DNA of 64,000 bases, taken from Acidobacteriota bacterium. Its GTDB lineage: Bacteria; Acidobacteriota; Vicinamibacteria; Vicinamibacterales; Fen-181. Below are positions 20,944 through 33,557 of the stretch, in pieces. The DNA lies in the NCBI GenBank assembly GCA_003170135.1, contig PMZR01000084.1:36674-100673 (forward strand), written 5' to 3'. The first letter of the stretch is position 1; the number at the start of each line of letters is the position of its first letter. A program made the translations under genes and the position numbers. The notes under the pieces are model-generated. The model was not told where the DNA came from, ran no database searches, and saw only the letters and a list, made by a program, of their open reading frames with translations.

Positions 20944-20945
20944 TC

Positions 20946-21172: not shown

Positions 21173-21604
21173 ATGGCTCGTCCTCCACTTCCCCGGCGCG
21201 TCTGTTGCCAGATCGGCGTCCGCGGGTTCCGCCCGATCGGCAAACCCGCCTGCGCGACCGAGCTCGTCACGATCGGACGCGATGAACTCGAGGCGATCCG
21301 GCTCGCCGATCTCGAAGGCCTCTACCAGGAGGCCGCGGCCGAGCGGATGGGCGTGTCGCGCCAGACGTTCGCACGCATCCTGACGCACGCGAGGGAAGTC
21401 GTGGCGCAGGGGCTGATCGAAGGCAAGGCGCTCCTCATCGAAACCGGCGCCGCCGTGGACGGTCCCGCCCCGCCGCTCACCTGCCCAGTTCACGGGGGCG
21501 CGCGGCGTCGTGGCCGGGGATGCCGATGCGCGGGCAGGCAGGCGTGCGACCGCCACGGGCCGGGCGGCGGGCTCTGCCGCACGGCGCCCGATGCGGAGAA
21601 ATGA
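21173..21604 (+). CDS. DUF134 (UPF0251) putative DNA-binding protein
   Basis: Starts MARPPLPRRVCCQIGVRGFRPIG, the characteristic DUF134 N-terminus. HTH-like EAAERMGVSRQTFARIL. Confidence 0.7.
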   Translation: MARPPLPRRVCCQIGVRGFRPIGKPACATELVTIGRDELEAIRLADLEGLYQEAAAERMGVSRQTFARILTHAREVVAQGLIEGKALLIETGAAVDGPAPPLTCPVHGGARRRGRGCRCAGRQACDRHGPGGGLCRTAPDAEK

Positions 21605-22275
21605 TGGAGGAGGCGCGAGATATGGCCGACACGAACACGCCATCGACCGACGACGGCCTGGAAGTCGTCGCCAGGCAGCTGCGCGAGGCGCGGGAGCACT
21701 ATGTGAAGCGGCTGGCGGCGTACAAGCTGGCTGGCTACGACCGGCCCGCAGCGGTGCGCTTCGTCGTCGATCAGGCCGAAGGGCTCTCGGGCCCGATCCT
21801 TGACGTCGGCTCAGGCCAGGGCATGCTGGCGATGGAGTTCGCGCGGCGCGGCCTGGAGGTGGTCAGCGTCGACGTGAACCCGAATGAGCAGATGACCGCC
21901 ATCTTGAACGCGCAACTCGAAGCGCTGCCCGGTCGGATCACGTTCATGGCCACCGACGCGCGGCGCGTTCCGTTTCAGGATTGTGCATTTGGGGCAGCCG
22001 CGGCCATGGATGCGCTGCATCACCTGGCCGAGGGCGAGCCGGTCTTCGCCGAGATGGTCCGGGTCGTGAGACCGTCTGGCAAGATTCTCCTGGCCGAGTT
22101 CGATCGGCACGGCCTGGAGATCGTCGCGCGTGTGCATCGGTCCGAAGGGCGGGACCATCCGGTCGGCCCGGTCACGTTCGCCAGCGCGGTTGACTGGTTC
22201 GTCGCCCGCGGCCTGAGGCTGGACGTACGCCGCAAAGGACACCTTCATTCCGTCGCCGTATTCAGCAAACCCTAG
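21601..22275 (+). CDS. Class I SAM-dependent methyltransferase
   Basis: ATGA overlap with the DUF134 stop. ILDVGSGQGMLAMEFARRG SAM motif. Confidence 0.7.
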   Translation: MMEEARDMADTNTPSTDDGLEVVARQLREAREHYVKRLAAYKLAGYDRPAAVRFVVDQAEGLSGPILDVGSGQGMLAMEFARRGLEVVSVDVNPNEQMTAILNAQLEALPGRITFMATDARRVPFQDCAFGAAAAMDALHHLAEGEPVFAEMVRVVRPSGKILLAEFDRHGLEIVARVHRSEGRDHPVGPVTFASAVDWFVARGLRLDVRRKGHLHSVAVFSKP

Positions 22276-22347
22276 GAGCGCGTGCGGCTCGCACCCGGAC
22301 TCCTGACAGCCGCGCGTTGGGCGCGATTTTCCAGGAAGAGGACTCAT

Positions 22348-22743
22348 ATGCGTATCTGTATTCCCGTACTCGAAGACAACGGTCTCGAAAGCCGCGTGAG
22401 CGCACACTTTGGTTCCGCTCCCGCGTTCATGATTGTCGATACCGAATCCGGGGCGTGCCGGGCCATCGTCAACACCGACAGCCATCATCAGCACGGCATG
22501 TGCCAGCCGCTCGCCGCCGTTGCCGGCGAAGCGGTGGACAGCATCGTTGTGGGCGGGATCGGCATGGGCGCGCTGATGAAGCTCGAGGCGGCGAACATCG
22601 CCGTGTTCCATGCGGACCGCGAGACCGTGGGCGCGACACTCGATGCCTTCAAGGCCGGAACGTTGCGCCGGGTCGATGCGCAGAGCGCGTGCGGACACCA
22701 TGGACACCAGCACGGGCATCCCGGCGGCCCGGCGGCGTATTGA
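22348..22743 (+). CDS. NifX/NifB-like (dinitrogenase FeMo-cofactor biosynthesis domain) protein with His-rich tail
   Basis: 131 aa with AGGAAGAGGA upstream. HFGSAPAFMIVD and IVVGGIGMGA motifs. Tail CGHHGHQHGH. Confidence 0.7.
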   Translation: MRICIPVLEDNGLESRVSAHFGSAPAFMIVDTESGACRAIVNTDSHHQHGMCQPLAAVAGEAVDSIVVGGIGMGALMKLEAANIAVFHADRETVGATLDAFKAGTLRRVDAQSACGHHGHQHGHPGGPAAY

Positions 22744-22751
22744 GCGCTGTG

Positions 22752-23264
22752 ATGCTCGAAGAGGCACGCGCCGACGGCCGGCGTTCTCTCGCGCTCACCG
22801 TGGTCGGGATGATCCACACGCCGTATCGCACACCGGAGGGCACGCCGATCCAGTCCAGGTTTGGCGAAGGGATCGAGGCGACGGTGACGGTGCGAGAGGA
22901 GTACGCCGATGCGCTGACGGACATCGAGGGGTTCGAGCGGCTCTGGCTCGTGTACTGGCTCGATCGGGCGGGGCCGTACGCCCCGCTCGTCGTGCCCTAT
23001 CGCGACGACCGGTCCCACGGGCTCTTCGCCACGCGAGCGCCCGCGAGGCCAAATCCGATTGGCCTCTCCGTGGTGCGACTGCTCGCGCGAGAGGGTGCGC
23101 TGCTGCGCGTGGCGGACATCGACGTGCTCGACGGCACGCCACTGGTCGACATCAAGCCCTACGTGCCAGAGTTCGACGCATACCCGGACTCGAAGGCCGG
23201 GTGGTTCGACTGCAATCGGGTCGATCGGACGAGGGCCGACGGGAGATTTCACGGCCGCGGATGA
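22752..23264 (+). CDS. TsaA/TrmO (YaeB, UPF0066) family methyltransferase-like protein
   Basis: 170 aa. RPNPIGLSVVRLL and LDGTPLVDIKPYVPEFD motifs. Confidence 0.75.
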   Translation: MLEEARADGRRSLALTVVGMIHTPYRTPEGTPIQSRFGEGIEATVTVREEYADALTDIEGFERLWLVYWLDRAGPYAPLVVPYRDDRSHGLFATRAPARPNPIGLSVVRLLAREGALLRVADIDVLDGTPLVDIKPYVPEFDAYPDSKAGWFDCNRVDRTRADGRFHGRG

Positions 23265-23287: not shown

Positions 23288-23740
23288 ATGACACGCTCGG
23301 CACTGATATTGTTCGGCGCGACGATGCTGCTCGGCATGTCGACGCTGGCGTTCGCGCAGACCCGCGGGCCCCAGGGCGCCGGACGGGGCGCGCCCCAGGG
23401 CGGACGAAACTACGATCCCGCGAGCGAGGTCACGATGGCCGGGACAATCGACGACGTCAGGAACGTGACCGCACCGGCAAACGGCCTGGGCGGCCTGCAC
23501 CTGACGGTGCGCGGTGATGCGGGCGTGCTGGACGTGCATCTCGGCCCCGCAAGCTTCGTGAAGGCGAAGCACTTCGAGTTCGCGAAGGGTGACGCGATCA
23601 CCGTGACTGGCTCGAAGGTGAAGATCGGCGGACAGGATGTGGTGATCGCACGCGAAGTGACGAAGGGCGGTCAGGTACTCACGCTCCGCGATGCCAAGGG
23701 ATTCCCGCTCTGGTCGGGACGAGCGCGAGGGGCGCGGTAG
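23288..23740 (+). CDS. Secreted hypothetical protein
   Basis: 150 aa. Signal peptide ending LAFAQT. G/R-rich linker. No family recognised. Confidence 0.45.
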   Translation: MTRSALILFGATMLLGMSTLAFAQTRGPQGAGRGAPQGGRNYDPASEVTMAGTIDDVRNVTAPANGLGGLHLTVRGDAGVLDVHLGPASFVKAKHFEFAKGDAITVTGSKVKIGGQDVVIAREVTKGGQVLTLRDAKGFPLWSGRARGAR

Positions 23741-24186
23741 AGGAATCGACGAGGCGGCTCTTCCTGCCCTTTGTCGGTTCAGCTCACGCGCGACCGGTAG
23801 CCGGTATCGCGCGGTGCGCCCCAGCGGGCCCCATCGCCGCAATCGACGGCAGGCGACTACGCCGAGGATCTCGCGGCGGAGATGCTCGCCACGACGCTCG
23901 GCCTGGAATTCGACGCCGACAAGAGCTGGGACGAGAAGCAAGAGGTCTACAGGCTTTCACGTCAGATCGTCCGGACTCAGAACGTGACCCAGACAGCAGT
24001 CGGTGACAAGACGGGCCTGTGGACCACGGTCATCGCAGCCACCGTCATGGTGGAGTGACGGGGACGGTCGCATTCATGATCGAACGAGCACGGTCGGGCG
24101 GCGAGCGGCCGCACCGCAGCCATCGGCACAGAACATCGTTGACGGCGGCACGCCGATGGGGATAATCCGCGCCGAGGAGTCAATCG

Positions 24187-24981
24187 ATGAACAAGGGCAT
24201 CCTGCGACGTGAGTTCCTCGGATTGGGGTGGGCGGTGGGCGGATTCTGCGTGGGACAGAGCGTGGAGCCGGCGATTGTCCAACCGAGCCAGGCTGGGGCG
24301 CCGCCGTTTCCCTGGCAGTACCGGCAACTCGACGTCGCACGGGTGAAGGCGCGGGCCTACACCGGCTATTTCAAGGGCGGGTGCATGTACGGGGTCTTCG
24401 AGGCGGTTGCCGGCAGCGTCGCCGACGCCCTCGGCAAGCCCTACACTGAATTTCCCTTCGAGCTGAGCACGTACGGCGGTGGAGGCGTCGCAGCGTGGGG
24501 AACGCTTTGCGGGACCTGCAACGGCACCGCGATGGCAATTGCGCTCTTCCATCAGGGCGAGCTGCGGAACACGCTCGTTCACGACGTCTTCTAGTGGTAC
24601 GAAGCGACGAGCCTTCCGTCCTACGCGCCCGAGACGCCGGTCAAGGTCGCGAAGGCGTTCCCGATGCCGTGCTCGCGCGCGGGCTCCGTGCTCTGCCACG
24701 TGTCGATCGCGCGATGGACGGCGGGGGCGGGATTCGCCGCATCCTCACCGGAACGCCTCGAACGCTGCGCGCGCCTGGTGGCGGATGTCGCCGGCCATGT
24801 CGCCGACGCCCTGAACATGGCGCAGGGACAGTACACTCCACGAACGTCGATCAGCGACGTGGCGGCCGGCTGCCTTGCGTGCCACGGTGAGGGGAAGCGG
24901 GCTCCACGCGAGGCGGAGGTGGTGGGCCGAATGGCCTGCACCGGATGCCACGAGGATCCGCACAACCGGAAGAAGCGATGA
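24187..24981 (+). pseudogene. Tat-exported C_GCAxxG_C_C / split-Soret cytochrome c-like dihaem protein interrupted by an in-frame TAG (24592-24594)
   Basis: ORFs 24187..24594 and 24664..24981 are in the same frame. Only one stop separates ...LVHDVF*WYEATSLP.... Tat motif RREFLGLG. GGCMYGVF and LCGTCNG motifs. Two CxxCH (CLACH, CTGCH). Confidence 0.55.
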
Positions 24982-25320
24982 TTCGTCACGCGGTGTCGCG
25001 CTGAAGTGCTGGAATTACTTCATACGATTCCACTCGGGGTCCCGAAGACGACCGTCGGTTTCGAACTGCCGCTGCCCGATCTGACCGATCCCAACTTCAC
25101 CCCCGAGCCCGACGCCGACTGGTTATCGGCCTGGAGTTCTAGCGGGCCTGAACGACCAACGCCGGTGACGGGCGAAGCAGGAACTCCGGTCCTCGCGGTC
25201 GACCATGACACGGTTCCCCGACCCGCGACGGCAGGACCTCACCGTCGTTCCGCGATCGTTTGCGAGTGCCCAGCCGCACCTCCTGCCCGCCGGAACTGAA
25301 ACAGGAACCTGAAACATCGA

Positions 25321-25349
25321 TTGACAGCCACGGCCGGGATTGTCACAAT
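25321..25349 (+). promoter_or_regulatory. Candidate sigma70-type promoter (TTGACA-17 nt-CACAAT)
   Basis: ttgaca 25321-25326 and cacaat 25344-25349, upstream of the merR-octahaem operon. Confidence 0.3.
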
Positions 25350-25499
25350 GTGCCAAGACCTACATCCGTGAATGTAGCTTTTCACGGCTGGTCACGCCCC
25401 CTGAAGGTTTCCTGTCCCCCGGTCGACTGCCCCCGATTGTTCCGCGCCTGCGCCCCCGCCGCGGTTCCCGCTGCGCGCGAGCGAGAAAGGACTCGAGCC

Positions 25500-26024
25500 G
25501 TGGGCCGTCTGAAGGTTCGCACCGCGACCCCCGCCAGGGCACCGCGCGCCGGGTGCGCGGGTGACAACGACACGCCGGTCTTTTCGATCGGTGAGGTCGC
25601 AACCCGGCTCGACGTCTCCGTGCAGGTCCTTCGTCTGTACGAACAGCGAGGCCTCATCCTGGTCCGCAAGGGCGCGGGAGGACAGCGCTGCTACTCGGAG
25701 TCCGACATCGAGCGCCTCGAGTGCATCAGGGCCGCGATCACCGAGCACAAGATTTCGATCGAGGGGATCCGGCGGCTGCAGTCGCTCGTGCCCTGCTGGG
25801 AGCACATCCAGTGTTCCGCCAGACAGCGCCGGAACTGCCCTGCGTACCTGACGCCGACGGGCGGCTGCTGGGCGCACCCCGAGCGGAGCGCCGTCTGCCG
25901 CCAGGCGGACTGTCGCCAGTGCGACGTCTACAGACTGTCGTCGAATTGCGACACCATCAAGGCCTTCATTCGTCGCACCGTTTCTCATTCACACCAATCG
26001 CCTCATAAGGACAACCAGTCATGA
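25500..26024 (+). CDS. MerR-family transcriptional regulator with Cys-rich C-terminal domain
   Basis: HTH FSIGEVATRLDVSVQVLRLYEQRGL. C-terminus has 8 Cys (CWEHIQC...CPAY...CW...CRQADCRQC). GTG 25500 was chosen (GAAAGGA upstream), so the start is uncertain. ATGA overlap with the next gene. Confidence 0.7.
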   Translation: MGRLKVRTATPARAPRAGCAGDNDTPVFSIGEVATRLDVSVQVLRLYEQRGLILVRKGAGGQRCYSESDIERLECIRAAITEHKISIEGIRRLQSLVPCWEHIQCSARQRRNCPAYLTPTGGCWAHPERSAVCRQADCRQCDVYRLSSNCDTIKAFIRRTVSHSHQSPHKDNQS

Positions 26025-27589
26025 AACGGATTCTCATCGCGTTTCTCGTGCTGGGCCTGACCGCCGCGATGGTCTCGACCGCGCTCCACAGGAAGAGCGA
26101 GGAGCGGTCGCCGCTGGCGACCCTTGCCGAGCAGTACTCGCACAAGGTCAAGCCGTCAGTCGACCATTCGCTGTTCACGCAGCTGAAGAAACCATTTGCC
26201 AGCCCGCAGGACGTGACGGCTGCGTGCGTCGGCTGCCACAACGGCCGCGCGGCCGAAGTGATGCAGTCGTCGCACTGGAACTGGGAACGCACGGAGTACG
26301 TTCCCGGCCAGGGCATCCGCGCCATCGGCAAGCGGAACATCCTGAACAACTTCTGCATCGGCATCTCGGGCAACCAGCAGAGCTGCGATCGCTGCCACAT
26401 CGGCTACGGCTACGCGAACTCCGCGTTCGACTTCAAGAACGCGCTGAACGTCGATTGCCTCGCCTGTCACGACAACAGCGCCACCTACAACAAGCAGGCG
26501 GAGGGCGCGGGGATGCCGGACCCGTCCGTCGACCTCAGTTACGTGGCGCAGCATGTGGGCAAGCCCCAACGGACCAACTGCGGCACCTGCCACTTCTTCG
26601 GCGGCGGCGGCAACAACGTGAAGCACGGCGATCTCGAGCAAGCGCTCTTCGATCCCTCGCGGGACGTGGACGTGCACATGGCGTCGGACGGTCCCGACAT
26701 GCAGTGCGTCGACTGTCACACGGCGTCGAAGCACCAGATGCTCGGGAAGATGTACTCCGTTTCGTCGATGAACCGGAACCGCGTCGAGTGCGAGACGTGC
26801 CACAGCCGGCTGCCGCACGCCGACGCCATCCTGAACGACCACACGCTGAAGGTGGCGTGCCAGACGTGTCACGTCCCGACCTACGCGAAGGTGAACCCGA
26901 CCAAGCTCTCGTGGGACTGGTCCACCGCCGGCCGGTTGAAGGACGGGAAACCGTACGAAGAAAAGGACGCGAACGGGACCGATCGGTACATGTCGATCAA
27001 GGGCTCGTTCGTCTGGGGCAAGCAGGTGAAGCCGGACTACGTGTGGTTCGACGGCACGGCGTCCCACTACCTGGTCGGCGATCGGTTCGATTCGTCGAAG
27101 CCGCTGCCGATGAACCAGTTGCACGGCAGCTACGACGATCCGGACTCGAAGATCTATCCGGTGAAGATCCATCGGGCGAACCAGATCTACGACACGGTGA
27201 ACAAATACCTCATCCAGCCGAAGCTCTACTCGGCGCACGCCGGCGACGGCGGGTTCTGGGGCGACTTCGACTGGGAGCGGGCCGCCGAGGAAGGGATGAA
27301 AGAGATCAACCTGCCCTACAGCGGCCGCTACGGGTTCGCGCAGACGGTCATGTACTGGCCGATCAACCACATGGTGTCACCGAAGGAAGCGTCGGTCGGG
27401 TGCAATGAGTGCCACACGCGCGATCACGGCAGGCTCGAGCACCTCGCCGGCTTTTACATGCCGGGGCGCGACCACAGGCCATGGCTCGACGTGCTCGGAG
27501 GCACTCTTCTCGCCCTGACCTTTGCGGGCGTCGTCATCCACGGCGGCGCACGCGCGCTCGTCGCCCGGAGACGGAAGGAGGAGGACTGA
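26021..27589 (+). CDS. Octahaem c-type cytochrome, tetrathionate reductase (Otr) family-like, with C-terminal TM anchor
   Basis: 522 aa with N-terminal signal/anchor. Eight CxxCH (CVGCH, CDRCH, CLACH, CGTCH, CVDCH, CETCH, CQTCH, CNECH). C-terminal hydrophobic helix followed by RRRKEED. Confidence 0.65.
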   Translation: MKRILIAFLVLGLTAAMVSTALHRKSEERSPLATLAEQYSHKVKPSVDHSLFTQLKKPFASPQDVTAACVGCHNGRAAEVMQSSHWNWERTEYVPGQGIRAIGKRNILNNFCIGISGNQQSCDRCHIGYGYANSAFDFKNALNVDCLACHDNSATYNKQAEGAGMPDPSVDLSYVAQHVGKPQRTNCGTCHFFGGGGNNVKHGDLEQALFDPSRDVDVHMASDGPDMQCVDCHTASKHQMLGKMYSVSSMNRNRVECETCHSRLPHADAILNDHTLKVACQTCHVPTYAKVNPTKLSWDWSTAGRLKDGKPYEEKDANGTDRYMSIKGSFVWGKQVKPDYVWFDGTASHYLVGDRFDSSKPLPMNQLHGSYDDPDSKIYPVKIHRANQIYDTVNKYLIQPKLYSAHAGDGGFWGDFDWERAAEEGMKEINLPYSGRYGFAQTVMYWPINHMVSPKEASVGCNECHTRDHGRLEHLAGFYMPGRDHRPWLDVLGGTLLALTFAGVVIHGGARALVARRRKEED

Positions 27590-27590
27590 C

Positions 27591-28232
27591 ATGACCCACT
27601 ACGTCTACCGGGGATTCGAGCGGTTCTGGCACTGGATGCAGGCCGCCCTCGTGCTGTTCCTCGCGGTCACCGGCTTCGAGATCCACGGCTCGATCGCCTT
27701 CTTCGGGTTCGAGCACGCCGTCAGATATCACAACACCGCCGCCACCGCGTTCCTCGTGCTGATCGCGTTCGCCATCTTCTGGCACTTCACGACCGGCGAG
27801 TGGCGGCAGTACCTGCCGACATGGACCAACCTGCGGCCGCAGGCGGAGTACTACCTCTTCGGCATCTTCCACGACGCCCCGCACCCGACGAGGAAGACCG
27901 TGCTGAGCAAGCTGAACCCGCTCCAGCGTCTCGTCTACGCGGGTCTGAAGGTGCTGGTGATCCCACTGATGGTCGTCTCCGGGCTCGTCTACATGTTTTA
28001 CCGCTACCCGCAGCGCCACGACGTGGTCGCGCTCAACGTCAACGGGCTCCAGACGGTCGCCCTGCTTCACACCGCGGGCGCGTTCCTGCTCGTCTCCTTC
28101 TTCATCGCGCATCTCTACCTGGTCACGACAGGACAGACGATCACGTCGAACCTGAAGGCGATGATCACCGGCTACGAAGACCTGACATACGATGCGGAGA
28201 AGAAGGCGGCCGAGGCCGAAACCGCAGCCTGA
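27591..28232 (+). CDS. Membrane b-type cytochrome (PhsC / Ni-Fe-hydrogenase cytochrome b family)
   Basis: 213 aa with GGAAGGAGGAGGA upstream. Four TM helices with conserved His (FWHWMQ, RYHNT, LLHTAG, IAHLY). Confidence 0.7.
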   Translation: MTHYVYRGFERFWHWMQAALVLFLAVTGFEIHGSIAFFGFEHAVRYHNTAATAFLVLIAFAIFWHFTTGEWRQYLPTWTNLRPQAEYYLFGIFHDAPHPTRKTVLSKLNPLQRLVYAGLKVLVIPLMVVSGLVYMFYRYPQRHDVVALNVNGLQTVALLHTAGAFLLVSFFIAHLYLVTTGQTITSNLKAMITGYEDLTYDAEKKAAEAETAA

Positions 28233-28243
28233 CGAGGCATCGC

Positions 28244-28756
28244 ATGAACACGAAATACATGAATCCCTATCTTGCCGGGTTCCTGCTCGGCATGGTCCTG
28301 TTGGCGACGATCTTCATCACCGGGCGCGGCCTGGGAGCCAGCGGCGCGGTCAAGGACGTGGTCATCGCCGCGGTGCACGGCGTGGCCCCCGCGCACGCCG
28401 AGCACTCGCCTTTCTACAAGACGTACGTCGGACCGGGAAAAGAGAACCCGCTGAAGTCCTGGCTGGTCTTCGAAGTGCTCGGCGTCATCATCGGCGCCTT
28501 CGTGTCGGGGCTCGTCTCCGATCGGCTCCGGTTCGTGACCGAAGGGGGGCCGCGCCTCCGGCCGTCGCGCCGGTGGCTCTTCGCGGCGATCGGCGGCGCG
28601 CTGTTCGCCGTCGGCGCCCAGTTCGCCCGCGGCTGCACCAGCGGCGCGGCGCTCAGCGGCATGGCGGTCCTGTCGACCGCCGGGTTCGTCACGATGCTCG
28701 CCATTTTCGGCACCGGATACGCGGTGGCGTACTTCGGCCGCAGGCTGTGGCTGTAG
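28244..28756 (+). CDS. YeeE/YedE-family sulfur-compound transporter, half-size subunit
   Basis: 170 aa, 4 TM. FARGCTSGAALSG active-Cys motif. Confidence 0.75.
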   Translation: MNTKYMNPYLAGFLLGMVLLATIFITGRGLGASGAVKDVVIAAVHGVAPAHAEHSPFYKTYVGPGKENPLKSWLVFEVLGVIIGAFVSGLVSDRLRFVTEGGPRLRPSRRWLFAAIGGALFAVGAQFARGCTSGAALSGMAVLSTAGFVTMLAIFGTGYAVAYFGRRLWL

Positions 28757-28772
28757 GAAAAGGAGTGCTGAA

Positions 28773-29969
28773 ATGATGGGACCCTTCGCGCCGGACCTCA
28801 TTCCCGATCAGCTGAACCTGGTCGTGGCCCTGTTCATCGGCATCGGTTTCGGCTACGTGCTCGAACAGGCGGGCTTCTCTTCGTCGCGCCGACTGGCCGG
28901 CCTCTTCTACGGCTACGACTTCACCGTCCTTCGGGTGTTCTTCACCGCCGCGGTCACGGCGATGAGCGGCGTGCTGCTGCTGGGCTATTTCGGCCTGCTC
29001 GACACCGAGGTGATCTACGTCAATCCCACATGGCTCTGGCCGGCCGTCGTGGGCGGCGCGATCATGGGCGTGGGATTCATCGTGGGCGGCTTCTGTCCGG
29101 GCACGAGCGTGTGTGCCGCCGCCATCGGCAAGATCGATGCGATGTTCTTCGTCGGCGGTGGGCTGCTCGGCGTCTTCGCATTCGGCGAGTCTTTCGCGAC
29201 CTACCAGCATTTCTACGAATCGTCTTCGCTCGGCGCGATCAAGGTGTTCGATTCGCTGGGCATCTCGCAGGGGCTCTTCGCCTTCCTGCTCATCGCCGGC
29301 GCCGTCGGTGCCTTCGCGGTGACAACGCTCGTCGAAAAACGAGTGGCCGGCCCGTCGGCGCCGTCGCAATCGTTCCGGTTCGGCAAGCACGCCGCCGCCG
29401 GCGCCGCGGTCATGGCGCTCGGCCTGGTCTTCATCGCGATGCCCGATCGCAAGGCGCACCTGATCGGTGAGGTGTCCGACTCTTCCTACGTCGCTGCGCA
29501 CCCGGTCGATGTGATGGACGCGGACGAGCTGGCGTTCCGGATCGTGGATCGCGAGCCGCGCGTGCAGATCATCGACATCCGCCCGCCGCAAGCCTATGCC
29601 CGGCTGGCGCTGCCCGGTTCCCGGAACATGCAGATCAAGGAGTTCTTCGGCAAGGATCCGATCGAGGTGCTGTCGCAGCGGCACGTGAAGAAGGTGCTGG
29701 TGGGCGAAACCGAGCACGACGAACGCGCCGCCTGCCTGCTGCTTGGCCTGTTGGGCTACGAGAACTTCGCCGCGCTCAAAGGCGGCCTCCAGTCGTTCCA
29801 GAACACGATCCTGACGGCGTCATTCGTTCCGACCGGCAGCAGGTGGGACGGCGACGTCCGCCAGTTCCGCGAGACAGCGCGCAGCCAGATTACTCAGATG
29901 ATCGCCAGCGCAAAGAACACCGGGTCGAAAGAACCGAAGAAGGTGAAGAAGGTCCAGGGCGGTTGCTGA
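28773..29969 (+). CDS. YeeE/YedE half-transporter fused to a rhodanese-homology domain (catalytic Cys absent); C-terminus ...KKVQGGC
   Basis: 398 aa with AAAGGAG upstream. GGFCPGTSVCAAA motif. Rhodanese-like QIIDIRPPQAYARLALPGSRN...KKVLVGETEHDERAA...LKGGLQSF. Confidence 0.7.
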   Translation: MMGPFAPDLIPDQLNLVVALFIGIGFGYVLEQAGFSSSRRLAGLFYGYDFTVLRVFFTAAVTAMSGVLLLGYFGLLDTEVIYVNPTWLWPAVVGGAIMGVGFIVGGFCPGTSVCAAAIGKIDAMFFVGGGLLGVFAFGESFATYQHFYESSSLGAIKVFDSLGISQGLFAFLLIAGAVGAFAVTTLVEKRVAGPSAPSQSFRFGKHAAAGAAVMALGLVFIAMPDRKAHLIGEVSDSSYVAAHPVDVMDADELAFRIVDREPRVQIIDIRPPQAYARLALPGSRNMQIKEFFGKDPIEVLSQRHVKKVLVGETEHDERAACLLLGLLGYENFAALKGGLQSFQNTILTASFVPTGSRWDGDVRQFRETARSQITQMIASAKNTGSKEPKKVKKVQGGC

Positions 29970-29973
29970 TGAC

Positions 29974-30029
29974 GCACACCTTCCTGCCCTATCAGTACTT
30001 CCTGGTGTTCACGGTGGCGGGCAGCCCGC
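29974..30029 (+). repeat. Orphan copy of the 3' end of the methyltransferase gene (direct repeat of 19169-19224)
   Basis: 54/56 nt identical to 19169-19224. Encodes HTFLPYQYFLVFTVAGSP. Both differences are synonymous Tyr codon changes. Confidence 0.9.
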
Positions 30030-30061
30030 AGAGTCGCTGACCGGGGTTGAGCCGGCGGCAG

Positions 30062-31426
30062 TTACTTCATGTATGTGGCGTGGCCGTTCGTGCCCGCTGG
30101 CGCAGCCTCCTGCATCATCGGCATGCCGTCCGCCATCTGGTGGCGCTCCACCAGGTGCGTCATCGTCATGTCCCACATCCGGCCCATCATTGATGCCGGA
30201 GGCCGCACTCGCAGGAAAAGGTGCAAGGAGAATGGATGACTCCCGTGGGTCGCCTGCAGCACCTCCGGCACGCCGTACGCGGTGACATCCGCGCCCACGC
30301 CCACCTGCGCGCCCGCCGGTTTCCAGAAATCGCGGACGTCACCCAGCGTCCAGGCGACGACGAATGCGACGGCGATGCCGCCGGGGCCGGCAGGCACGCG
30401 GTCGAACACGAGGAGATTCGTTTCGACCTGAACGGTCTCGAACCGCGTGTAGATCGCGTTCGCCCCGAACCGGCGCGTCGCCTCGACAAAAAAGGCATTC
30501 GAGGAGTCGTGTGCCTTGTCATTGCGCCCGTAGGCGGCCGTTACCGCGGTGAACCCGTCATCGCGCTCCCGAAACCACTCGACAGACGTCGTCGTGCGCC
30601 GGACGTTGCCCGGCTCGAGCGCCTCGGGGTCCTTCAGCACGCCGCTCGAGACCTGAAGCAGCCAATTCGACGAAGGCCGAATCCAGACGCGAGCCGACCA
30701 GGAATCGAGCGGACCGCGATCCAGCAGGTTCCAGCGGTTGTCATCCGGTTCGCGGCCGTTGAAGAGCGACGCCTCAACGATCACGGGGCCACGATCGACA
30801 GCAGCCGTGATGACGCCCATCGCGATGTGCGTGGAGTCGAAGGTGTGATGGCTGAGCGGCGCCACCGGATTCTCCGCCGCTGATGGCCGGTGCATGAAGG
30901 CCACGGGACCCAGAGCCGGCTCACCGACCGGGCCGCCGGCAATCGTCAGCCGCGCGTGTTTCGTGACGGGCACGTGCCATGCACCCGCGAGCTGCATCGT
31001 CAGGTCGTGCGGGTGCTGGCGATCGACCAGCGGCTGTCCATTGCAGGTTTCGCCGGCCTGGAAGATCTCCCGGTAACCGCACTTGCCGACCGTGGCCGGC
31101 TCGAGGCTCGCCATGCCGGTGAAGGTCAGGGTGCCGTGGCCGAGCCGGTGTGTGAGCATGCCCATCCACCAGTTCGGTGCCTTGAAGTCCGTGCCGCCGC
31201 GCGGGCCTCCCTGGCGGTTCAGCATGACCGAGAGCAGCCCGTCGTACATCAGCTGCCAACCATCGCCCGAGGGAGACATCGTCATCTGAGATGGAGGCCG
31301 TCCAGCGGTGGATGACGGCTGGATGTCGGCGTTCTGCGCCGTCGCAGCGGACAGAGGAACGAGCAGCAACGCGATTGCCGCGAGCAGACGTCCTACACGG
31401 CGGGCTGGCGAGGCTGAAATCCGCAT
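30062..31426 (-). CDS. Secreted / probable outer-membrane protein with Met/His-rich C-terminal tail
   Basis: Signal peptide MRISASPARRVGRLLAAIALLLVPLSAATAQ (alternative start 31450). Beta-rich body. Tail MMGRMWDMTMTHLVERHQMADGMPMMQE...HATYMK. Confidence 0.5.
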   Translation of the reverse strand: MRISASPARRVGRLLAAIALLLVPLSAATAQNADIQPSSTAGRPPSQMTMSPSGDGWQLMYDGLLSVMLNRQGGPRGGTDFKAPNWWMGMLTHRLGHGTLTFTGMASLEPATVGKCGYREIFQAGETCNGQPLVDRQHPHDLTMQLAGAWHVPVTKHARLTIAGGPVGEPALGPVAFMHRPSAAENPVAPLSHHTFDSTHIAMGVITAAVDRGPVIVEASLFNGREPDDNRWNLLDRGPLDSWSARVWIRPSSNWLLQVSSGVLKDPEALEPGNVRRTTTSVEWFRERDDGFTAVTAAYGRNDKAHDSSNAFFVEATRRFGANAIYTRFETVQVETNLLVFDRVPAGPGGIAVAFVVAWTLGDVRDFWKPAGAQVGVGADVTAYGVPEVLQATHGSHPFSLHLFLRVRPPASMMGRMWDMTMTHLVERHQMADGMPMMQEAAPAGTNGHATYMK

Positions 31427-31547
31427 ACGAGGTCCGACCCAACTCAGCATGCGCGGGGTGCTCCGCCGAAGTCAACACGGCGGCGACGTGCTCCGCGCGG
31501 TGATCGGGCGGTGCCGGACGACGTCTAAACAAGTGAGGTTCCCAAAC

Positions 31548-32135
31548 GTGTCGCTGCAGGCCCGCCTGCTGGACGACATCGTCGACAACGTGCGGACGGC
31601 ACGGGGAACCATGCGGTTGCAGCGGCAGGCCATCGATCTCACGTCGGTCGTGGCCGCCGCCCTCGACATGGCGCGGCCAGCAGCCACCGCGCATGAGGTT
31701 CGGCTGGAACAGAGACTCGACGGCCGCGAGATGCCTGTCTTTGGAGACGCGGTCCGCCTGCAGCAGGTCATGACGAACCTGCTCTCGAACGCACTCAAGT
31801 TCACGCCCGCCGGCGAGTCGATCACGGTTCGGCTCGAACGCGCCGGGGAGCACGCTCAGATCAGCGTGAGCGACAGCGGCATCGGCATCGAGGAGGCGTT
31901 CCTCCCGTTCGTCTTCGAGCGCTTCAGGCGGGGCAATCACGCGCGCGAGGGTCTCGGTCTGGGCCTGGCAATCGCTCGACACCTGGTCGAGATGCACGGG
32001 GGCGCCATCGCCGTCGCAAGCCCGGGCCTCGAACGTGGCAGCACGTTCACCGTGACGCTGCCGCTGCAATCCCGCGATCTACCGCGAGGGGCCCGTGAGC
32101 GATCGGGTCAGATGGAAGGTCCCGCCAGGCTGTAG
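31548..32135 (+). pseudogene. Truncated sensor histidine kinase (HATPase_c domain only; phospho-acceptor H-box missing)
   Basis: N, G1 and G2 boxes present (LLSNALKFTP, DSGIGI, GLGLGLAI). The sequence begins mid-DHp (LQARLLDDIVD...) with no HExxxP box upstream. The upstream part of ORF 31308.. overlaps the start of the divergent gene. Confidence 0.5.
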
Positions 32136-32494
32136 AGCAGGATGGCAAGCACGATGAGCGTGAAGACCACGTATCGGACATCACGCGCCAGTAGGAACAT
32201 CACCACCGAGAAGACGACGCGGGCGACCGGGGTCGCGATGAGCAGGAGCAGGCCGAACTGAATGAGGCCGCGGCCTCGCACGTCGAAGGCGTCCTTCAGG
32301 ATGCCCGACACGGCGCGCAGGTCGGTCGGCTCGCCGTGGAACACGTGGTAGGCGGGCGGTTCCGTGCCGTGACGTGCCAGGAACAGGATCCCGCCGGCCA
32401 GCACGACCGTCGCCGAGACGAGCACACCACCGCGCAGGATGTTCCCCAGCAGATTCTCCAACCGCTCGTCGGTCCAGTACCGCTCTACCGTCAT
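32108..32494 (-). CDS. DUF1634 membrane protein (usual partner of TauE/SafE permeases)
   Basis: 128 aa from MTVERYW. Three TM segments. The rest of listed ORF 32108..33418 is out-of-frame overlap with the next gene. Confidence 0.65.
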   Translation of the reverse strand: MTVERYWTDERLENLLGNILRGGVLVSATVVLAGGILFLARHGTEPPAYHVFHGEPTDLRAVSGILKDAFDVRGRGLIQFGLLLLIATPVARVVFSVVMFLLARDVRYVVFTLIVLAILLYSLAGPSI

Positions 32495-32508
32495 GGCTGC
32501 TGCCTTGT

Positions 32509-33345
32509 TCAAACCCGCCCGGTCAACCCCTGGTAGATCATCTCGATGGCCAGTACGACGATGACCACCGCGAAGACCAACCGCAGCACCTTTGTCGGCG
32601 CGTGGGCCAGGATGCGCGCGCCGGTCATTGAACCCGCGAGCACGCCGAGCATGACCGGCATGGCGAGTCCAGGATCGATGTAGCCGCGGTTCAAGTACAC
32701 GCCGGCGCTCGCCGCCGCGGTCACCCCGATCATGAAGTTGCTGGTCGTCGTGGACACCTTGAACGGGATCCGCATCACCTGGTCCATCGCCAGCACCTTG
32801 ACCGCGCCGGACCCGATGCCGAGCAGGCCTGACAGACCGCCCGCCACGAACATCAGACCGAAACCGCCGGGAATGCCACGCACGCGGTAGGTCTGCACCC
32901 CGCGCGCCGTCGGGTATGTCGAGTCGAAGCGCAGCATCGTCGCCAGCCGATCGGGAGCGGCCGTGTCGGCCTCTTCGCTCTTCGGGCGGGATGAGAACCA
33001 CGCCGACGACAGAAGCACGAGGCCGAACACGACCGCGATGGCACCGGTTGGCAGGTGCGCGGCGAGCGCGGCGCCGCCCAGGGCCCCGGTGGTCGTCGCG
33101 ATCTCGAGCACCATCCCGATGCGGATGTTCGAATAGCCCTCCTTCACGTAGGCGGCCGCCGCCCCGGACGACGTGGCGATGACCGACACCAGCGACGCGC
33201 CGATCGCGTACCGGATATCGACGCCGAAGACGAGCGTCAGGAGAGGCACGAGGACGACGCCGCCGCCCAGGCCGGTGAGCGCGCCGAGAAACCCGGCGAG
33301 GAGCGACGAGGCGGCGACAAGCGTGGTGAAGAGCAGCGTGGTCAT
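32509..33345 (-). CDS. TauE/SafE (TSUP) family sulfite/organosulfur anion exporter
   Basis: FLGALTGLGGGVVLVPLL and GLLGIGSGAVKV repeats. ATG 33345 preferred over TTG 33378. Confidence 0.75.
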   Translation of the reverse strand: MTTLLFTTLVAASSLLAGFLGALTGLGGGVVLVPLLTLVFGVDIRYAIGASLVSVIATSSGAAAAYVKEGYSNIRIGMVLEIATTTGALGGAALAAHLPTGAIAVVFGLVLLSSAWFSSRPKSEEADTAAPDRLATMLRFDSTYPTARGVQTYRVRGIPGGFGLMFVAGGLSGLLGIGSGAVKVLAMDQVMRIPFKVSTTTSNFMIGVTAAASAGVYLNRGYIDPGLAMPVMLGVLAGSMTGARILAHAPTKVLRLVFAVVIVVLAIEMIYQGLTGRV

Positions 33346-33557
33346 CGTGAACGGACGAAGCGGGATGGAAAAACGCAAAGAGCGAGCCAGGCCTCGCGAC
33401 GCGCCAGAACGCCATCATTGGTGCGCCCTAGCCCCGATGCTTCATGTTGGCCGCGCCGACCGGAAGATCGAACACAACGCCGTTTTCTGTCCGGCTTTCA
33501 TGCACCAACGTCGGCAGGTTGACGCGGCGTCTTGCGATCGGCTCAGCGATCCTTAAG

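What the first reader, a model, noticed from the sequence alone, without database searches (positions are those of the whole stretch)
25500..29969. MerR(Cys-rich) - octahaem cytochrome - cytochrome b - YeeE/YedE - YeeE/rhodanese: a candidate self-contained sulfur-oxyanion respiratory/uptake module
Five co-oriented, tightly packed genes (ATGA overlap, then 1-16-nt gaps) make up the module:
- a MerR regulator with an 8-Cys C-terminal domain, a possible Fe-S or redox sensor
- an Otr-family-like octahaem cytochrome c that, unusually, carries a C-terminal membrane anchor
- a PhsC-type quinol-oxidising cytochrome b
- a split YeeE/YedE transporter, whose family includes thiosulfate importers

Otr enzymes are known to reduce tetrathionate, nitrite and hydroxylamine in vitro. 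Their physiological role is unsettled.

Linking one to a sulfur-compound transporter and a quinol dehydrogenase suggests a dedicated thiosulfate, tetrathionate or sulfite branch feeding the Dsr pathway. I do not know this gene combination as a described system.
Basis: inference. Interest (0 to 1): 0.65.

Follow-up and report, generated by a model that had tools for sequence, protein, structure and literature searches.

The report
Membrane-anchored Otr sulfur reductase with carrier-channel module
A five-gene operon, conserved across several bacterial phyla, joins a membrane-anchored octahaem "tetrathionate reductase" and its quinol-oxidising cytochrome b to a two-part sulfur channel that carries a predicted periplasmic, enzymatically dead rhodanese domain ending in a flexible cysteine arm, which suggests how these common wetland bacteria respire and take up intermediate sulfur compounds.

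Summary
The five genes sit at the stated coordinates and are tightly packed.

The four structural genes are co-conserved. All 72 related genome loci with enough flank keep the order Otr, cytochrome b, YeeE half 1, YeeE half 2 + rhodanese. These loci come from Ignavibacteriota/Bacteroidota, Acidobacteriota, KSB1, Armatimonadota and others. The MerR gene lies upstream in about 59 of 80 loci.

- **Cytochrome:** a true Otr-family member, with eight CxxCH motifs and the active-site Lys conserved.
- **C-terminal helix:** carries a conserved His and occurs only where a cytochrome b follows, so it is probably the docking element.
- **"Rhodanese":** lacks the catalytic Cys. It is predicted periplasmic and ends in an invariant Lys-rich ...GGC-COOH tail like the SoxY carrier arm.
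- **Unfused relatives:** two YeeE halves plus an anchored rhodanese-GGC protein follow Psr/Phs-type molybdenum reductases in other bacteria.

The transporter-carrier unit is therefore a portable accessory of periplasmic sulfur reductases.

Best reading: quinol-driven reduction of tetrathionate or a carrier-bound S-S species, coupled to sulfur hand-over and import, under a Cys-rich MerR. No paper I could search describes this. The link to Dsr is not general. There is no transcript or biochemical evidence.

The parts
25321..25349 (+). Promoter-like site (TTGACA-17-CACAAT with TG) enclosing a palindrome TGACA-N14-TGTCA (25322-25345). Candidate MerR operator; a weak lead only.
   Evidence: the only sigma-70-like match in 24900-30300 (0.6 expected by chance). 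The palindrome pattern was found upstream of merR in none of 57 related loci.
25500..26024 (+). MerR-family regulator with a C-terminal domain of about 52 aa carrying 8 invariant Cys (PCW-x4-C-x7-CPA-x8-CW-x9-C-x4-CRxC-xVY-x6-C), plus one invariant Cys in the preceding helix. Start codon uncertain.
   Evidence: Pfam MerR_1. NCBIfam hits (HspR, SoxR and others) are all far below cut-off. Cys invariance in 59 and 53 homologues. AF2 model pLDDT 79; Foldseek matches only the HTH part.
26021..27589 (+). Octahaem cytochrome c of the Otr (tetrathionate reductase) family. It has an N-terminal signal peptide, eight CxxCH, Lys104 (aligned to the Shewanella Otr Lys56 ligand) and invariant Cys112. Its C-terminal transmembrane helix (about residues 486-507) has a conserved His506 and a basic cytoplasmic tail.
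   Evidence: TIGR04315 598 bits against cut-off 375. 1SP3 E 2.7e-134. Conservation in 72 homologues. Anchor and cytochrome b co-occur across Otr clades.
27591..28232 (+). Membrane cytochrome b of the Ni_hydr_CYTB family (PhsC/FdnI/HyaC-like); presumed di-haem quinol dehydrogenase.
   Evidence: Pfam PF01292 E 1.5e-26. Best NCBIfam match is PhsC at 97 bits, below the 204 cut-off. Seven conserved His, including a pair 14 residues apart in the last helix.
28244..28756 (+). YeeE/YedE half-transporter corresponding to the C-terminal half of TsuA (PmpA-like). Four TM helices, predicted N-in/C-in, invariant RGCTSG Cys (equivalent to TsuA Cys293, periplasmic side).
   Evidence: Pfam Sulf_transp positions 170-308. 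Conservation. Hydropathy and K/R bias. Topology frame from PMC7449682 and PMC11582611.
28773..29444 (+). [quoted passage not shown] Predicted N-out, six TM helices, C-out.
   Evidence: Pfam Sulf_transp positions 11-187. Six conserved hydrophobic segments, with K+R of 0, 2.0, 0, 1.0, 1.3, 4.2 in successive loops. Unfused homologue in L081 ends after TM5.
29445..29921 (+). Rhodanese-fold domain without a catalytic Cys (Gly311 at the active-site position), followed by a long helix. Predicted periplasmic.
   Evidence: Pfam Rhodanese E 1e-8. Active-site column is G40/A23/S3 of 68. AF2 pLDDT 88-94 and Foldseek rhodanese matches with TMt up to 0.8. Standalone homologues carry N-terminal signal anchors or lipoprotein signals.
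29922..29966 (+). Flexible Lys-rich C-terminal arm ending in GGC-COOH (…KEPKKVKKVQGGC); proposed sulfur-carrying thiol.
   Evidence: Terminal Cys in 65 of 68 genome homologues, and invariant G396, G397, C398 in A2. GGC(x0-3)-COOH in 106 of 150 family representatives. pLDDT below 50 for residues 384-398.

Best explanation
This is an operon for a quinol-dependent, periplasm-facing reductase of S-S-bonded sulfur compounds. Tetrathionate, or a protein-bound thiosulfonate or persulfide derived from it, is the most likely substrate. The reductase is built together with its own sulfur hand-over and import device.

Proposed mechanism, with the status of each step:
1. The di-haem cytochrome b oxidises menaquinol. 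This is inferred from its family.
2. Electrons pass to the octahaem Otr. Otr is exported and stays tethered by a C-terminal helix carrying a conserved His, and this helix docks it on the cytochrome b. The inference rests on the strict co-occurrence of anchor and cytochrome b. The arrangement resembles the anchored FdnH and HyaA subunits that sit on related b cytochromes.
3. Otr cleaves an S-S bond at its Lys-ligated haem. The family assignment is shown; the substrate is inferred.
4. YeeE1 and YeeE2 form an antiparallel heterodimeric channel of the PmpAB/TsuA type. This is inferred by homology.
5. YeeE2 holds a dead rhodanese domain in the periplasm. Its disordered Lys-rich tail ends in a free Cys. 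That Cys is proposed to bind the sulfur species covalently, as the SoxY arm does. It would then pass the species between the reductase and the mouth of the channel, or present it to Otr as the actual substrate. The anatomy is shown; the chemistry is inferred.
6. The imported sulfur is used in the cytoplasm, and may also be what the Cys-rich MerR senses to control the operon. This last step is inferred.
For: Family assignments.

Synteny: 72 of 72 loci across phyla keep the four structural genes in order.

The same link recurs in three other architectures:
- Soluble Otr, a separate TM-anchored multihaem protein with the same ...VIHGGLR... anchor motif, cytochrome b, YeeE1 and YeeE2-Rhd-GGCG (L108, L110, L111, L114).
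- Anchored Otr, cytochrome b, cytochrome c, a full-length YeeE and a secreted triple rhodanese (L133).
- Otr, cytochrome b, YeeE1 and YeeE2-Rhd at only about 30% identity in the rhodanese part (L092).

Anchor and cytochrome b track each other. Every anchor with the H-[GA]-x-x-R motif is followed at once by a cytochrome b, and Shewanella-type soluble Otr has neither.

The transporter-carrier unit is portable. In L081-L084 and L087 a PhsA-like molybdopterin subunit, an FeS subunit and an NrfD subunit are followed by two Sulf_transp halves, a TM-anchored rhodanese-GGC protein and further secreted rhodaneses with the same tail.

Periplasmic side of the domain: with the topology frame from PMC7449682 and PMC11582611.

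Dead active site, invariant terminal Cys and disordered tail.

Literature:
- otr was induced 36-fold by tetrathionate in a marine acidobacterium (PMC8528874).
- otr lies next to a divergent soxY/soxZ pair in lucinid symbionts (PMC11237559).
- YeeE-like SoxT proteins are proposed to import carrier-bound sulfur for metabolism and for signalling (PMC11582611).
Against: - There is no transcript evidence. Three peat metatranscriptomes gave only stray cross-matches.
- There is no biochemical evidence for any member of this clade.
- Shewanella Otr also reduces nitrite and hydroxylamine in vitro, so the family assignment does not fix the substrate.
- The covalent carrier role of the terminal Cys rests on resemblance to SoxY, whose motif I recalled from memory. 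The fold is rhodanese, not SoxY.
- The direction of transport through the channel is unknown.
- Some anchored Otr + cytochrome b loci show no YeeE within the available flank (L131, L141), so the reductase can work without the module.
- MerR is absent from about a quarter of loci. A sigma-54-type regulator sits beside L110 instead.
- The topology is predicted, not measured.
Confidence: 0.5

Rival explanations
1. Simple product import. Otr reduces free tetrathionate to thiosulfate and the YeeE1/YeeE2 channel imports the thiosulfate. The periplasmic rhodanese-like domain is only an anion-binding or gating lid, and the terminal Cys does not carry sulfur covalently.
For: TsuA/YeeE imports thiosulfate using hydrogen-bonding cysteines (PMC7449682). 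The conserved Cys91 and Cys293 equivalents are present. The tail is rich in Lys, which suits anion capture. Tetrathionate induces otr in another acidobacterium (PMC8528874).
Against: A mere lid would not need an invariant last-residue Cys preceded by Gly-Gly across 30-80% sequence divergence and in unfused proteins. In L081 three different secreted rhodanese proteins share the same tail. The same unit accompanies Psr/Phs-type enzymes, whose products differ.
Confidence: 0.2
2. The transporter-carrier unit serves signalling rather than metabolism. It imports traces of a sulfur species so that the cytoplasmic Cys-rich MerR can sense an external acceptor and switch on Otr and cytochrome b, as proposed for SoxT1B with SoxR/sHdrR.
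For: PMC11582611 shows a YeeE-like protein acting in signal transduction. The MerR has nine invariant Cys and sits in the same operon in most loci.
Against: YeeE1 and YeeE2-Rhd are kept in all 72 loci, while MerR is missing from about a quarter. The unit also occurs with Psr/Phs clusters that have no MerR.
Confidence: 0.1
3. The enzyme works on nitrogen compounds in vivo (nitrite or hydroxylamine reduction, or detoxification). The neighbouring transporter would then be functionally unrelated, or would carry another anion.
For: From my own knowledge of Atkinson et al. 2007, Shewanella Otr reduces nitrite and hydroxylamine in vitro; PMC13510729, which cites that paper, lists nitrite among the substrates Otr uses. 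Several genome papers list Otr as a possible nitrite reductase (PMC7509429).
Against: The conserved partners are all sulfur-trafficking families: Sulf_transp and rhodanese. The same partners accompany Psr/Phs-type sulfur reductases. No nitrogen-cycle genes recurred in the flanks.
Confidence: 0.08
4. The module handles selenium. It would reduce selenite or selenotrisulfides in the periplasm and take up selenium through a YedE-like channel.
For: Weak NCBIfam hits to YedE selenium transporters and to the rhodanese/DsbD-like selenoprotein TsoB. The Srr selenite reductase operon of Bacillus selenitireducens, which encodes a TAT-exported molybdenum catalytic subunit with FeS and membrane-anchor subunits, also encodes rhodanese-domain proteins (PMC12481199).
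Against: All selenium-family scores are far below cut-off (17-35 bits against 200-805). No selD, selA or SECIS-type context was seen. Direct evidence links otr to tetrathionate (PMC8528874).
Confidence: 0.07
5. The system runs oxidatively. Otr would oxidise thiosulfate, to tetrathionate or onto the Cys arm as SoxXA does with SoxY, and would deliver electrons to the quinone pool through the cytochrome b.
For: The SoxY-like arm. otr lies next to soxYZ in sulfur-oxidising symbionts (PMC11237559).
Against: The tetrathionate/thiosulfate couple is +198 mV (cited in PMC8528874). Quinone reduction, especially of menaquinone in these anaerobes, would therefore be uphill. The unit's other partner enzymes are reductases of the Psr/Phs type.
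Confidence: 0.05

Closest known systems
Octahaem tetrathionate reductase Otr of Shewanella oneidensis (PDB 1SP3)
   Same: Same family: TIGR04315, about 57% identity over residues 55-473. Eight CxxCH motifs. The Lys aligned with the unusual haem-2 ligand and the neighbouring NNFC Cys are conserved.
   Different: The Shewanella enzyme is soluble. Its neighbour SO4142 is annotated as a monohaem cytochrome c (PMC5955497). Shewanella-type loci have no cytochrome b, YeeE or rhodanese nearby. The window protein adds a C-terminal TM helix with a conserved His and is always followed by a cytochrome b.
Membrane-bound formate dehydrogenase-N and [NiFe] hydrogenase-1 architecture (anchored FdnH or HyaA on FdnI or HyaC cytochrome b); PhsC of thiosulfate reductase
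   Same: The cytochrome b is of the same Pfam family (PF01292), and PhsC is the best NCBIfam hit. A periplasmic redox subunit is tethered by a single C-terminal helix next to that cytochrome b. This comparison is from established knowledge of those complexes.
   Different: The partner here is a multihaem c cytochrome, not an FeS subunit. The PhsC score is below cut-off (97 versus 204 bits). Contact between anchor and cytochrome b is inferred from co-occurrence only.
TsuA/YeeE thiosulfate importer with YeeD (TsuB), and the split PmpA/PmpB members of the family
   Same: Sulf_transp fold. The halves correspond to PmpA (C-half, Cys293 equivalent) and PmpB (N-half, Cys91 equivalent). The predicted topologies match the crystal structure (PMC7449682, PMC11582611).
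   Different: No TusA-like YeeD partner is present. The N-half subunit carries two extra helices and an extracytoplasmic rhodanese-like domain. Scores are far below the TsuA equivalog cut-offs.
SoxY of the Sox system (periplasmic carrier with a C-terminal GGCGG swinging arm)
   Same: Predicted periplasmic location. A flexible C-terminal arm in which basic residues precede Gly-Gly-Cys at or next to the C-terminus. Association with a c-type cytochrome enzyme acting on thiosulfate-level sulfur. otr also neighbours a divergent soxY in symbionts (PMC11237559).
   Different: Rhodanese fold rather than the SoxY beta-sandwich. No SoxZ partner. Tethered to, or encoded next to, a transporter. Covalent sulfur binding has not been shown.
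Sud, the periplasmic polysulfide-sulfur transferase that feeds PsrABC in Wolinella succinogenes
   Same: A periplasmic rhodanese-fold protein that serves a quinol-linked sulfur reductase. Unfused relatives of the window's domain sit directly behind Psr/Phs-type operons. The Sud facts are from my own knowledge.
   Different: Sud uses the canonical active-site Cys. Here that Cys is lost and the conserved thiol is at the C-terminus.
SoxR and other MerR-family redox or metal sensors
   Same: MerR-type winged HTH. The sensor cysteines lie C-terminal to the dimerisation helix.
   Different: Eight-Cys motif with no Pfam, NCBIfam or PDB counterpart. The SoxR CIGCGCLSxxxC motif (recalled from my own knowledge) is absent.

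Membership tests
Otr family (NCBIfam TIGR04315, tetrathionate reductase family octahaem cytochrome c) | Profile score above the curated cut-off | tested here: met
   598.4 bits against a cut-off of 375, full-length match 1-440 of 440.
Otr family (NCBIfam TIGR04315, tetrathionate reductase family octahaem cytochrome c) | Eight CxxCH haem-binding motifs | tested here: met
   Motifs at residues 69, 122, 146, 187, 229, 257, 280 and 461, all invariant in 72 homologues.
Otr family (NCBIfam TIGR04315, tetrathionate reductase family octahaem cytochrome c) | Lys ligand of the catalytic haem (Lys56 of 1SP3; the identity of the ligand is from my own knowledge of Mowat et al. 2004) | tested here: met
   Window GKRN aligns with GKKN of 1SP3. 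Lys104 is invariant.
Otr family (NCBIfam TIGR04315, tetrathionate reductase family octahaem cytochrome c) | Tetrathionate reductase activity | not testable with these tools
   Indirect support only: otr of another acidobacterium is induced by tetrathionate (PMC8528874).
PhsC, thiosulfate reductase cytochrome b subunit (NF011582) | Equivalog score above cut-off | tested here: not met
   97.1 bits against a cut-off of 204. It is a member of Pfam PF01292 only.
Ni_hydr_CYTB di-haem cytochrome b (PF01292) | Pfam score above the gathering threshold, and conserved His able to ligate two b haems | tested here: met
   93.7 bits against 30.1. Seven conserved His, including a pair 14 residues apart in the last helix.
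TsuA/YeeE thiosulfate transporter | Equivalog score above cut-off, as a single nine-helix polypeptide | tested here: not met
   41 bits against 400 and 22.9 against 645. The fold is split over two genes.
TsuA/YeeE thiosulfate transporter | Essential Cys91 and Cys293 equivalents in the re-entrant loops | tested here: met
   GGFCPGTS in YeeE2 and RGCTSG in YeeE1, both invariant. Mapping follows PMC11582611.
TsuA/YeeE thiosulfate transporter | Adjacent TusA-like YeeD/TsuB partner | tested here: not met
   No such gene in the window cluster. No TusA-like gene appeared among the 25 commonest conserved flank families of the 80 related loci, of which only a few were checked against Pfam.
PmpA/PmpB-type split YeeE/YedE | Two adjacent half-size genes, each with four helices and one conserved Cys | tested here: met
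   YeeE2 departs by having two extra helices and a fused domain.
Rhodanese sulfurtransferase | Rhodanese fold | tested here: met
   Pfam PF00581 35.9 bits against 22.2. AF2 pLDDT 88-94, with Foldseek TM-scores up to 0.8 to single-domain rhodaneses.
Rhodanese sulfurtransferase | Catalytic Cys at the start of the active-site loop | tested here: not met
   Gly311 in the window. The column is G40, A23, S3, D1, P1 in 68 homologues. One distant representative (P0228) keeps CRTQRR.
SoxY sulfur carrier | C-terminal Gly-Gly-Cys carrier arm on a periplasmic protein | tested here: inconclusive
   GGC-COOH in 65 of 68 homologues and GGC(x0-3) in 106 of 150 representatives. The tail is disordered and the periplasmic side is predicted. 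The SoxY motif itself was recalled from memory and not aligned here.
SoxY sulfur carrier | SoxY fold and SoxZ partner | tested here: not met
   The domain is a rhodanese fold. No SoxY, SoxZ or other further domain was detected in the five cluster proteins by Pfam, and the cluster has no sixth gene.
MerR family regulator | MerR-type HTH | tested here: met
   PF13411 55.9 bits against 21.6. Foldseek matches GlnR, TnrA, CarH, NmlR and SoxR HTH domains.
SoxR ([2Fe-2S] MerR-type redox sensor) | Equivalog score and the CIGCGCLSxxxC cluster motif (the motif recalled from my own knowledge) | tested here: not met
   37.2 bits against 116.9. The Cys spacing is different.

The most novel reading that the evidence does not exclude
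The physiological substrate of this large Otr clade is not a free oxyanion. It is a sulfur adduct (thiosulfonate, persulfide or polysulfide) carried on the C-terminal Cys of a previously unrecognised family of periplasmic carriers. These carriers are dead rhodanese domains with a SoxY-like …GGC arm.

The carrier is fused to, or encoded beside, a split YeeE channel. It would shuttle sulfur between the reductase and the membrane pore. This would be a reductive counterpart of the Sox carrier logic, shared by haem (Otr) and molybdenum (Psr/Phs) sulfur reductases.
Probability: 0.3. Interest if true: 0.78.

Novelty: new variant of a known kind. Interest (0 to 1): 0.62.

Why it matters
The role of Otr in living cells has stayed open since its structure was solved in 2004. 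This work gives a concrete, testable context for it: a quinol-linked, membrane-anchored complex with its own sulfur carrier and channel.

The module is not a curiosity. The Otr scan found relatives in 412 stretches of one-genome-per-species GTDB. The YeeE2-rhodanese protein has thousands of metagenomic homologues, many from peat, fen and sediment Ignavibacteriota, Bacteroidota and Acidobacteriota.

If the module reduces tetrathionate or carrier-bound sulfur and imports the product, it would be a major route for the cryptic cycling of sulfur intermediates. That cycling competes with methanogenesis in wetlands.

The …GGC-tailed dead rhodanese would add a new type of periplasmic sulfur carrier. 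It would also be the first case of a carrier physically tethered to a YeeE-type pore. The eight-Cys MerR domain is a candidate new sensor module.

Tried and rejected
- **Transcript support.** RNA runs from the same peat study hold none of the sampled words. Laying them on 24000-31500 gave three short, imperfect cross-matches only. This says nothing either way.
- **My recollection about Shewanella.** I recalled that otr sits beside a cytochrome b. This was wrong: SO4142 is annotated as a monohaem cytochrome c. Shewanella-type loci show no cytochrome b.
- **A sixth conserved gene.** Clustering of all flank ORFs of 80 loci found nothing universal. Recurrent neighbours were CoADR-rhodanese, single rhodaneses, methyltransferases, NifX-like, TauE, DUF134 and CGGC proteins.
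- **A conserved MerR operator.** The TGACA-N14-TGTCA palindrome within the only promoter-like site was not found upstream of merR in 57 other loci.
- **Identity of the MerR Cys-rich domain.** No Pfam or NCBIfam match, and Foldseek against the PDB matches only the HTH.
- **Cultured carriers.** The genome papers on Ignavibacterium album and Melioribacter roseus mention only molybdenum-type tetrathionate reductases.
- **Tail as a sorting tag.** I considered that the tail is a sorting or lipidation tag, because three proteins of one operon share it. I rated this lower because no dedicated processing gene is conserved with it.
- **Literature.** Ten searches found no description of the Otr-YeeE-rhodanese combination.

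Full report
**1. What is in the sequence**

Between 25500 and 29969 the + strand carries five ORFs with the high third-position GC of real genes in this 67% GC window (GC3 0.87-0.91).

- MerR, 25500-26024. Its stop overlaps the start of the next gene as ATGA.
- An octahaem cytochrome, 26021-27589.
- After 1 nt, a cytochrome b, 27591-28232.
- After 11 nt, a YeeE/YedE half, 28244-28756.
- After 16 nt, a second YeeE/YedE half fused to a rhodanese domain, 28773-29969.

Pfam assigns MerR_1, Cytochrome_cB, Ni_hydr_CYTB, Sulf_transp, and Sulf_transp + Rhodanese.

The window comes from a peat metagenome. It also holds dsrAB (3559-5829), dsrK, dsrP and a dsrN-like gene (9681-15450), and Mvh/Hdr-type genes.

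**2. Co-conservation**

A scan of one genome per GTDB species found 412 stretches encoding relatives of the cytochrome. I kept the best 80, at 57-76% identity. They are MAGs of Ignavibacteriota/Bacteroidota, Acidobacteriota, Kryptoniota, KSB1, Armatimonadota, Leptospiraceae and Chromatiales.

In every one of the 72 loci with at least 2.4 kb downstream, cytochrome b, YeeE1 and YeeE2-rhodanese follow in the same order. A MerR homologue lies upstream in 59 of 80.

No sixth gene is universally conserved. Recurrent neighbours are CoA-disulfide-reductase-rhodanese fusions, single rhodaneses, methyltransferases, and NifX-like, TauE, DUF134 and CGGC proteins. Several of these also flank the module in the window.

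**3. The cytochrome**

It scores 598 bits against the Otr-family model TIGR04315 (cut-off 375). It aligns to Shewanella Otr (1SP3) at E 2.7e-134 over residues 55-473.

All eight CxxCH motifs, Lys104 and the NNFC Cys112 are invariant in 72 homologues. Lys104 aligns with Lys56 of 1SP3, which from my own knowledge of Mowat et al. 2004 is the ligand of the catalytic haem.

Compared with 1SP3 it has a signal peptide and a C-terminal hydrophobic helix followed by RRRKEED. The helix contains a conserved His-[GA]-x-x-Arg motif.

**4. The anchor goes with the cytochrome b**

I scanned metagenomes with the Shewanella sequence to sample other Otr branches. I then searched those 63 loci with the window's proteins.

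- Shewanella-type Otr (L093-L107) ends in a polar tail and has no cytochrome b or YeeE nearby.
- Every Otr with a hydrophobic C-terminus carrying the His motif is immediately followed by a cytochrome b (L115, L124, L131, L133, L137, L140, L141, L154).
- In L108, L110 and L111 the Otr is soluble. A second multihaem protein of about 609 aa lies between it and the cytochrome b. That protein ends in the same anchor (…FVVIHGGLRALSNKK).

The anchor therefore behaves as a transferable docking element for this cytochrome b. The cytochrome b itself belongs to PF01292. PhsC is its nearest named relative but scores below cut-off (97 versus 204 bits). It keeps seven His, including a pair 14 residues apart in its last helix.

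From established knowledge, the same cytochrome b family holds the C-terminally anchored FdnH and HyaA subunits. By analogy I infer quinol, then haems b, then Otr. The Otr + cytochrome b561 pair had been noted once, in an Ignavibacteriae MAG (PMC7509429).

**5. The transporter**

TsuA/YeeE has its N-terminus outside and its C-terminus inside. Its two four-helix halves have opposite orientation and are joined by helix H7 (PMC7449682). The short PmpB and PmpA proteins correspond to the N-half (Cys91) and the C-half (Cys293), and probably form heterodimers (PMC11582611).

- The window's YeeE1 matches the C-half and keeps RGCTSG.
- YeeE2 matches the N-half and keeps GGFCPGTS.
- For YeeE1, alignment-averaged hydropathy and Lys+Arg counts give four helices, N-in and C-in.
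- For YeeE2 they give six conserved hydrophobic segments. The N-terminus and loop 2-3 have no Lys or Arg, and loop 5-6 has a mean of 4.2. This indicates N-out and C-out.

**6. The rhodanese domain is dead, outside, and ends in a cysteine arm**

At the active-site position the window has Gly311. The column is G, A or S in 66 of 68 homologues.

The only conserved Cys outside the membrane part is the last residue. Tails read …KK-x-KK-[IV]-x-GGC-COOH in 65 of 68. G396, G397 and C398 are invariant in an alignment reaching 38% identity.

An AlphaFold2 model gives a confident rhodanese fold (pLDDT 88-94), a long helix at 359-382 and a disordered tail at 384-398. Foldseek confirms the fold, with TM-scores up to 0.8 to single-domain rhodaneses.

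A profile-free search of 1.8 billion representatives with the domain plus tail found a small family: 258 proteins at E ≤ 0.001. Of the best 150, 106 end in GGC followed by 0-3 residues.

Besides the ~398-aa fusions, this family contains ~200-aa proteins. These consist of an N-terminal signal anchor, the same Cys-less domain, a Lys-rich linker and GGC(S/G/D/Q). Those signals place the domain outside the cytoplasm.

In L081 the unfused YeeE2 ends after helix 5, and the next gene starts with its own anchor helix. This is exactly what a fusion giving six helices and an external domain would need. I rate the periplasmic location at about 0.85.

**7. The transporter-carrier unit is portable**

The standalone form P0282 lies in the order PhsA-like molybdopterin subunit (741 aa; best NCBIfam hit PhsA, 476 bits, below cut-off), FeS subunit, NrfD-type subunit, Sulf_transp (175 aa), Sulf_transp (206 aa), rhodanese-GGC. 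Two further secreted rhodaneses follow. P0254 shows the same order in another lineage.

In L081 all three rhodanese proteins end in K-rich-VQGGCS. One is a lipoprotein with two active rhodanese domains.

Distant fused forms are still preceded by cytochrome b (L090, where the short contig begins at the cytochrome b) or by Otr + cytochrome b (L092). L133 shows a third variant: anchored Otr, cytochrome b, cytochrome c, a full-length YeeE (423 aa) and a secreted triple rhodanese.

A YeeE-type channel plus a periplasmic rhodanese-fold protein therefore accompanies two unrelated classes of quinol-linked periplasmic reductases. The best-known substrates of both classes are S-S-bonded sulfur species. 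This is the main argument for a sulfur substrate and against nitrite.

**8. How it most likely works**

- Shown: the families, the anatomy and the co-conservation.
- Inferred: menaquinol is oxidised by the cytochrome b, and electrons reach the anchored Otr. Otr cleaves an S-S bond. The Lys-rich arm with its terminal thiol captures the sulfur species. It then hands that species to the periplasmic mouth of the YeeE1/YeeE2 pore, where the Cys293 equivalent sits, or presents it to Otr.

From my own knowledge, tetrathionate reacts readily with thiols to give a protein thiosulfonate plus thiosulfate. A carrier-bound substrate is therefore chemically plausible.

Three published observations fit:
- otr rose 36-fold with tetrathionate in Ca. 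Sulfomarinibacter (PMC8528874).
- otr neighbours a divergent soxY/soxZ pair in lucinid symbionts (PMC11237559).
- The Dahl group proposes that SoxYZ-bound sulfur enters the cell through YeeE-like SoxT proteins, for oxidation and for signalling (PMC11582611).

From my own knowledge, Sud of Wolinella is the precedent for a periplasmic rhodanese-fold protein feeding a sulfur reductase.

The Cys-rich MerR has nine invariant Cys and no family or structural match for the sensor part. It may sense the imported species or bind an Fe-S cluster. This is open.

**9. Limits**

- There is no RNA evidence and no biochemical evidence.
- The direction of transport is unknown.
- Some anchored Otr + cytochrome b loci have no YeeE in the flank available (L131, L141).
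- MerR is dispensable. L110 has a sigma-54-type regulator next door instead.
- The resemblance to the SoxY arm rests on the motif as I remember it.

**10. Novelty**

All parts belong to known families, and the Otr + cytochrome b pair has been mentioned before. Three things appear in none of the papers my ten full-text searches returned:
- the conserved four- or five-gene module;
- the anchor-to-cytochrome-b rule;
- the dead rhodanese with a terminal GGC arm, with its portability between Otr and Psr/Phs systems.

I class it as a new variant of a known kind, namely periplasmic sulfur respiration with a sulfur carrier. It has a fair chance of defining a new carrier family.

Noticed in passing
window 24187-24981 (+): A gene with a twin-arginine-like signal (RREFLGLG), a C_GCAxxG_C_C domain and two CxxCH motifs near its end. 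It resembles a split-Soret-type cytochrome. It is interrupted by an in-frame TAG at 24592-24594, and the reading frame continues sensibly after it (…HDVF*WYEATSLP…). It could be a pseudogene, an assembly error or read-through.
   Followed up: partly
window 27476-27541 (Otr residues about 486-507); L110 7296-9125: The C-terminal anchor helix carries a conserved His-[GA]-x-x-Arg motif near its cytoplasmic end in every anchored Otr examined. The same motif ends a separate 609-aa multihaem cytochrome that sits between a soluble Otr and the cytochrome b in L110. The His could be a shared haem b ligand.
   Followed up: partly
L081 8001-8621, 9144-9833, 9863-10990: Three different secreted or anchored rhodanese proteins of one Psr/Phs-type operon all end in the same K-rich-VQGGCS tail. 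One of them is a lipoprotein with two apparently active rhodanese domains.
   Followed up: partly
L141 9289-9834; L124 599-1177; L121 7370-7675: Other small proteins beside Otr genes also end in Gly-rich …GGC-COOH. Two are DUF302 proteins with N-terminal hydrophobic segments. The third is a 101-aa protein directly after a soluble Otr. About 2-4 such endings would be expected by chance among all ORFs scanned, so this is only suggestive.
   Followed up: partly
window 3559-15450: A complete-looking dissimilatory sulfite reductase region 10-22 kb upstream of the module: dsrA (3559-4734), dsrB (4747-5829), a small ORF after dsrB (5876-6127), dsrK (9681-11390), dsrP (12832-13998) and a cobyrinic acid a,c-diamide synthase-like gene (14041-15450).
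   Followed up: partly
window 36354-40384: A second NarI-like + DsrK-like pair (36354-37445 and 37283-39049; DsrK 320 bits, below the 400 cut-off), followed by an IS481-type transposase (39176-40384).
   Followed up: no
window 19456-20943 and 32108-33378 (-): Further sulfur-anion transport genes flank the module: a Na+/sulfate symporter-family gene upstream, and a TauE/SafE + DUF1634 pair downstream. TauE-like genes also recur near the module in about 10 of the 80 related loci.
   Followed up: partly
window 15197-23264; flanks of L001-L080: A set of small genes recurs near the module in other phyla too: SAM methyltransferases (18543-19241, 21520-22275), a NifX/NifB-like protein (22282-22743), a TrmO-like protein (22740-23264) and a CGGC-domain ORF (within 15197-18175). 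Methyltransferase appears in 15 loci, NifX-like in 11, DUF134 in 8 and CGGC in 5. Their connection to the module is unknown.
   Followed up: partly
P0228 (L089 822-2036): One distant YeeE2-rhodanese representative keeps a canonical rhodanese active-site loop (YCRTQRR) as well as the …SGGCG tail. This suggests that the ancestor had an active domain.
   Followed up: no
window 30062-31450 (-) and 23288-23740 (+): Two ORFs with signal-peptide-like N-termini and no Pfam match border the module. The upstream one has weak relatives near the module in L023 and L030 (31-37% identity).
   Followed up: no
window 42286-44022 (-): An unusual fusion of an HdrD/DsrK-like FeS + CCG domain with a C-terminal response-regulator receiver domain. 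It lies next to a PAS histidine kinase (40845-42284).
   Followed up: no
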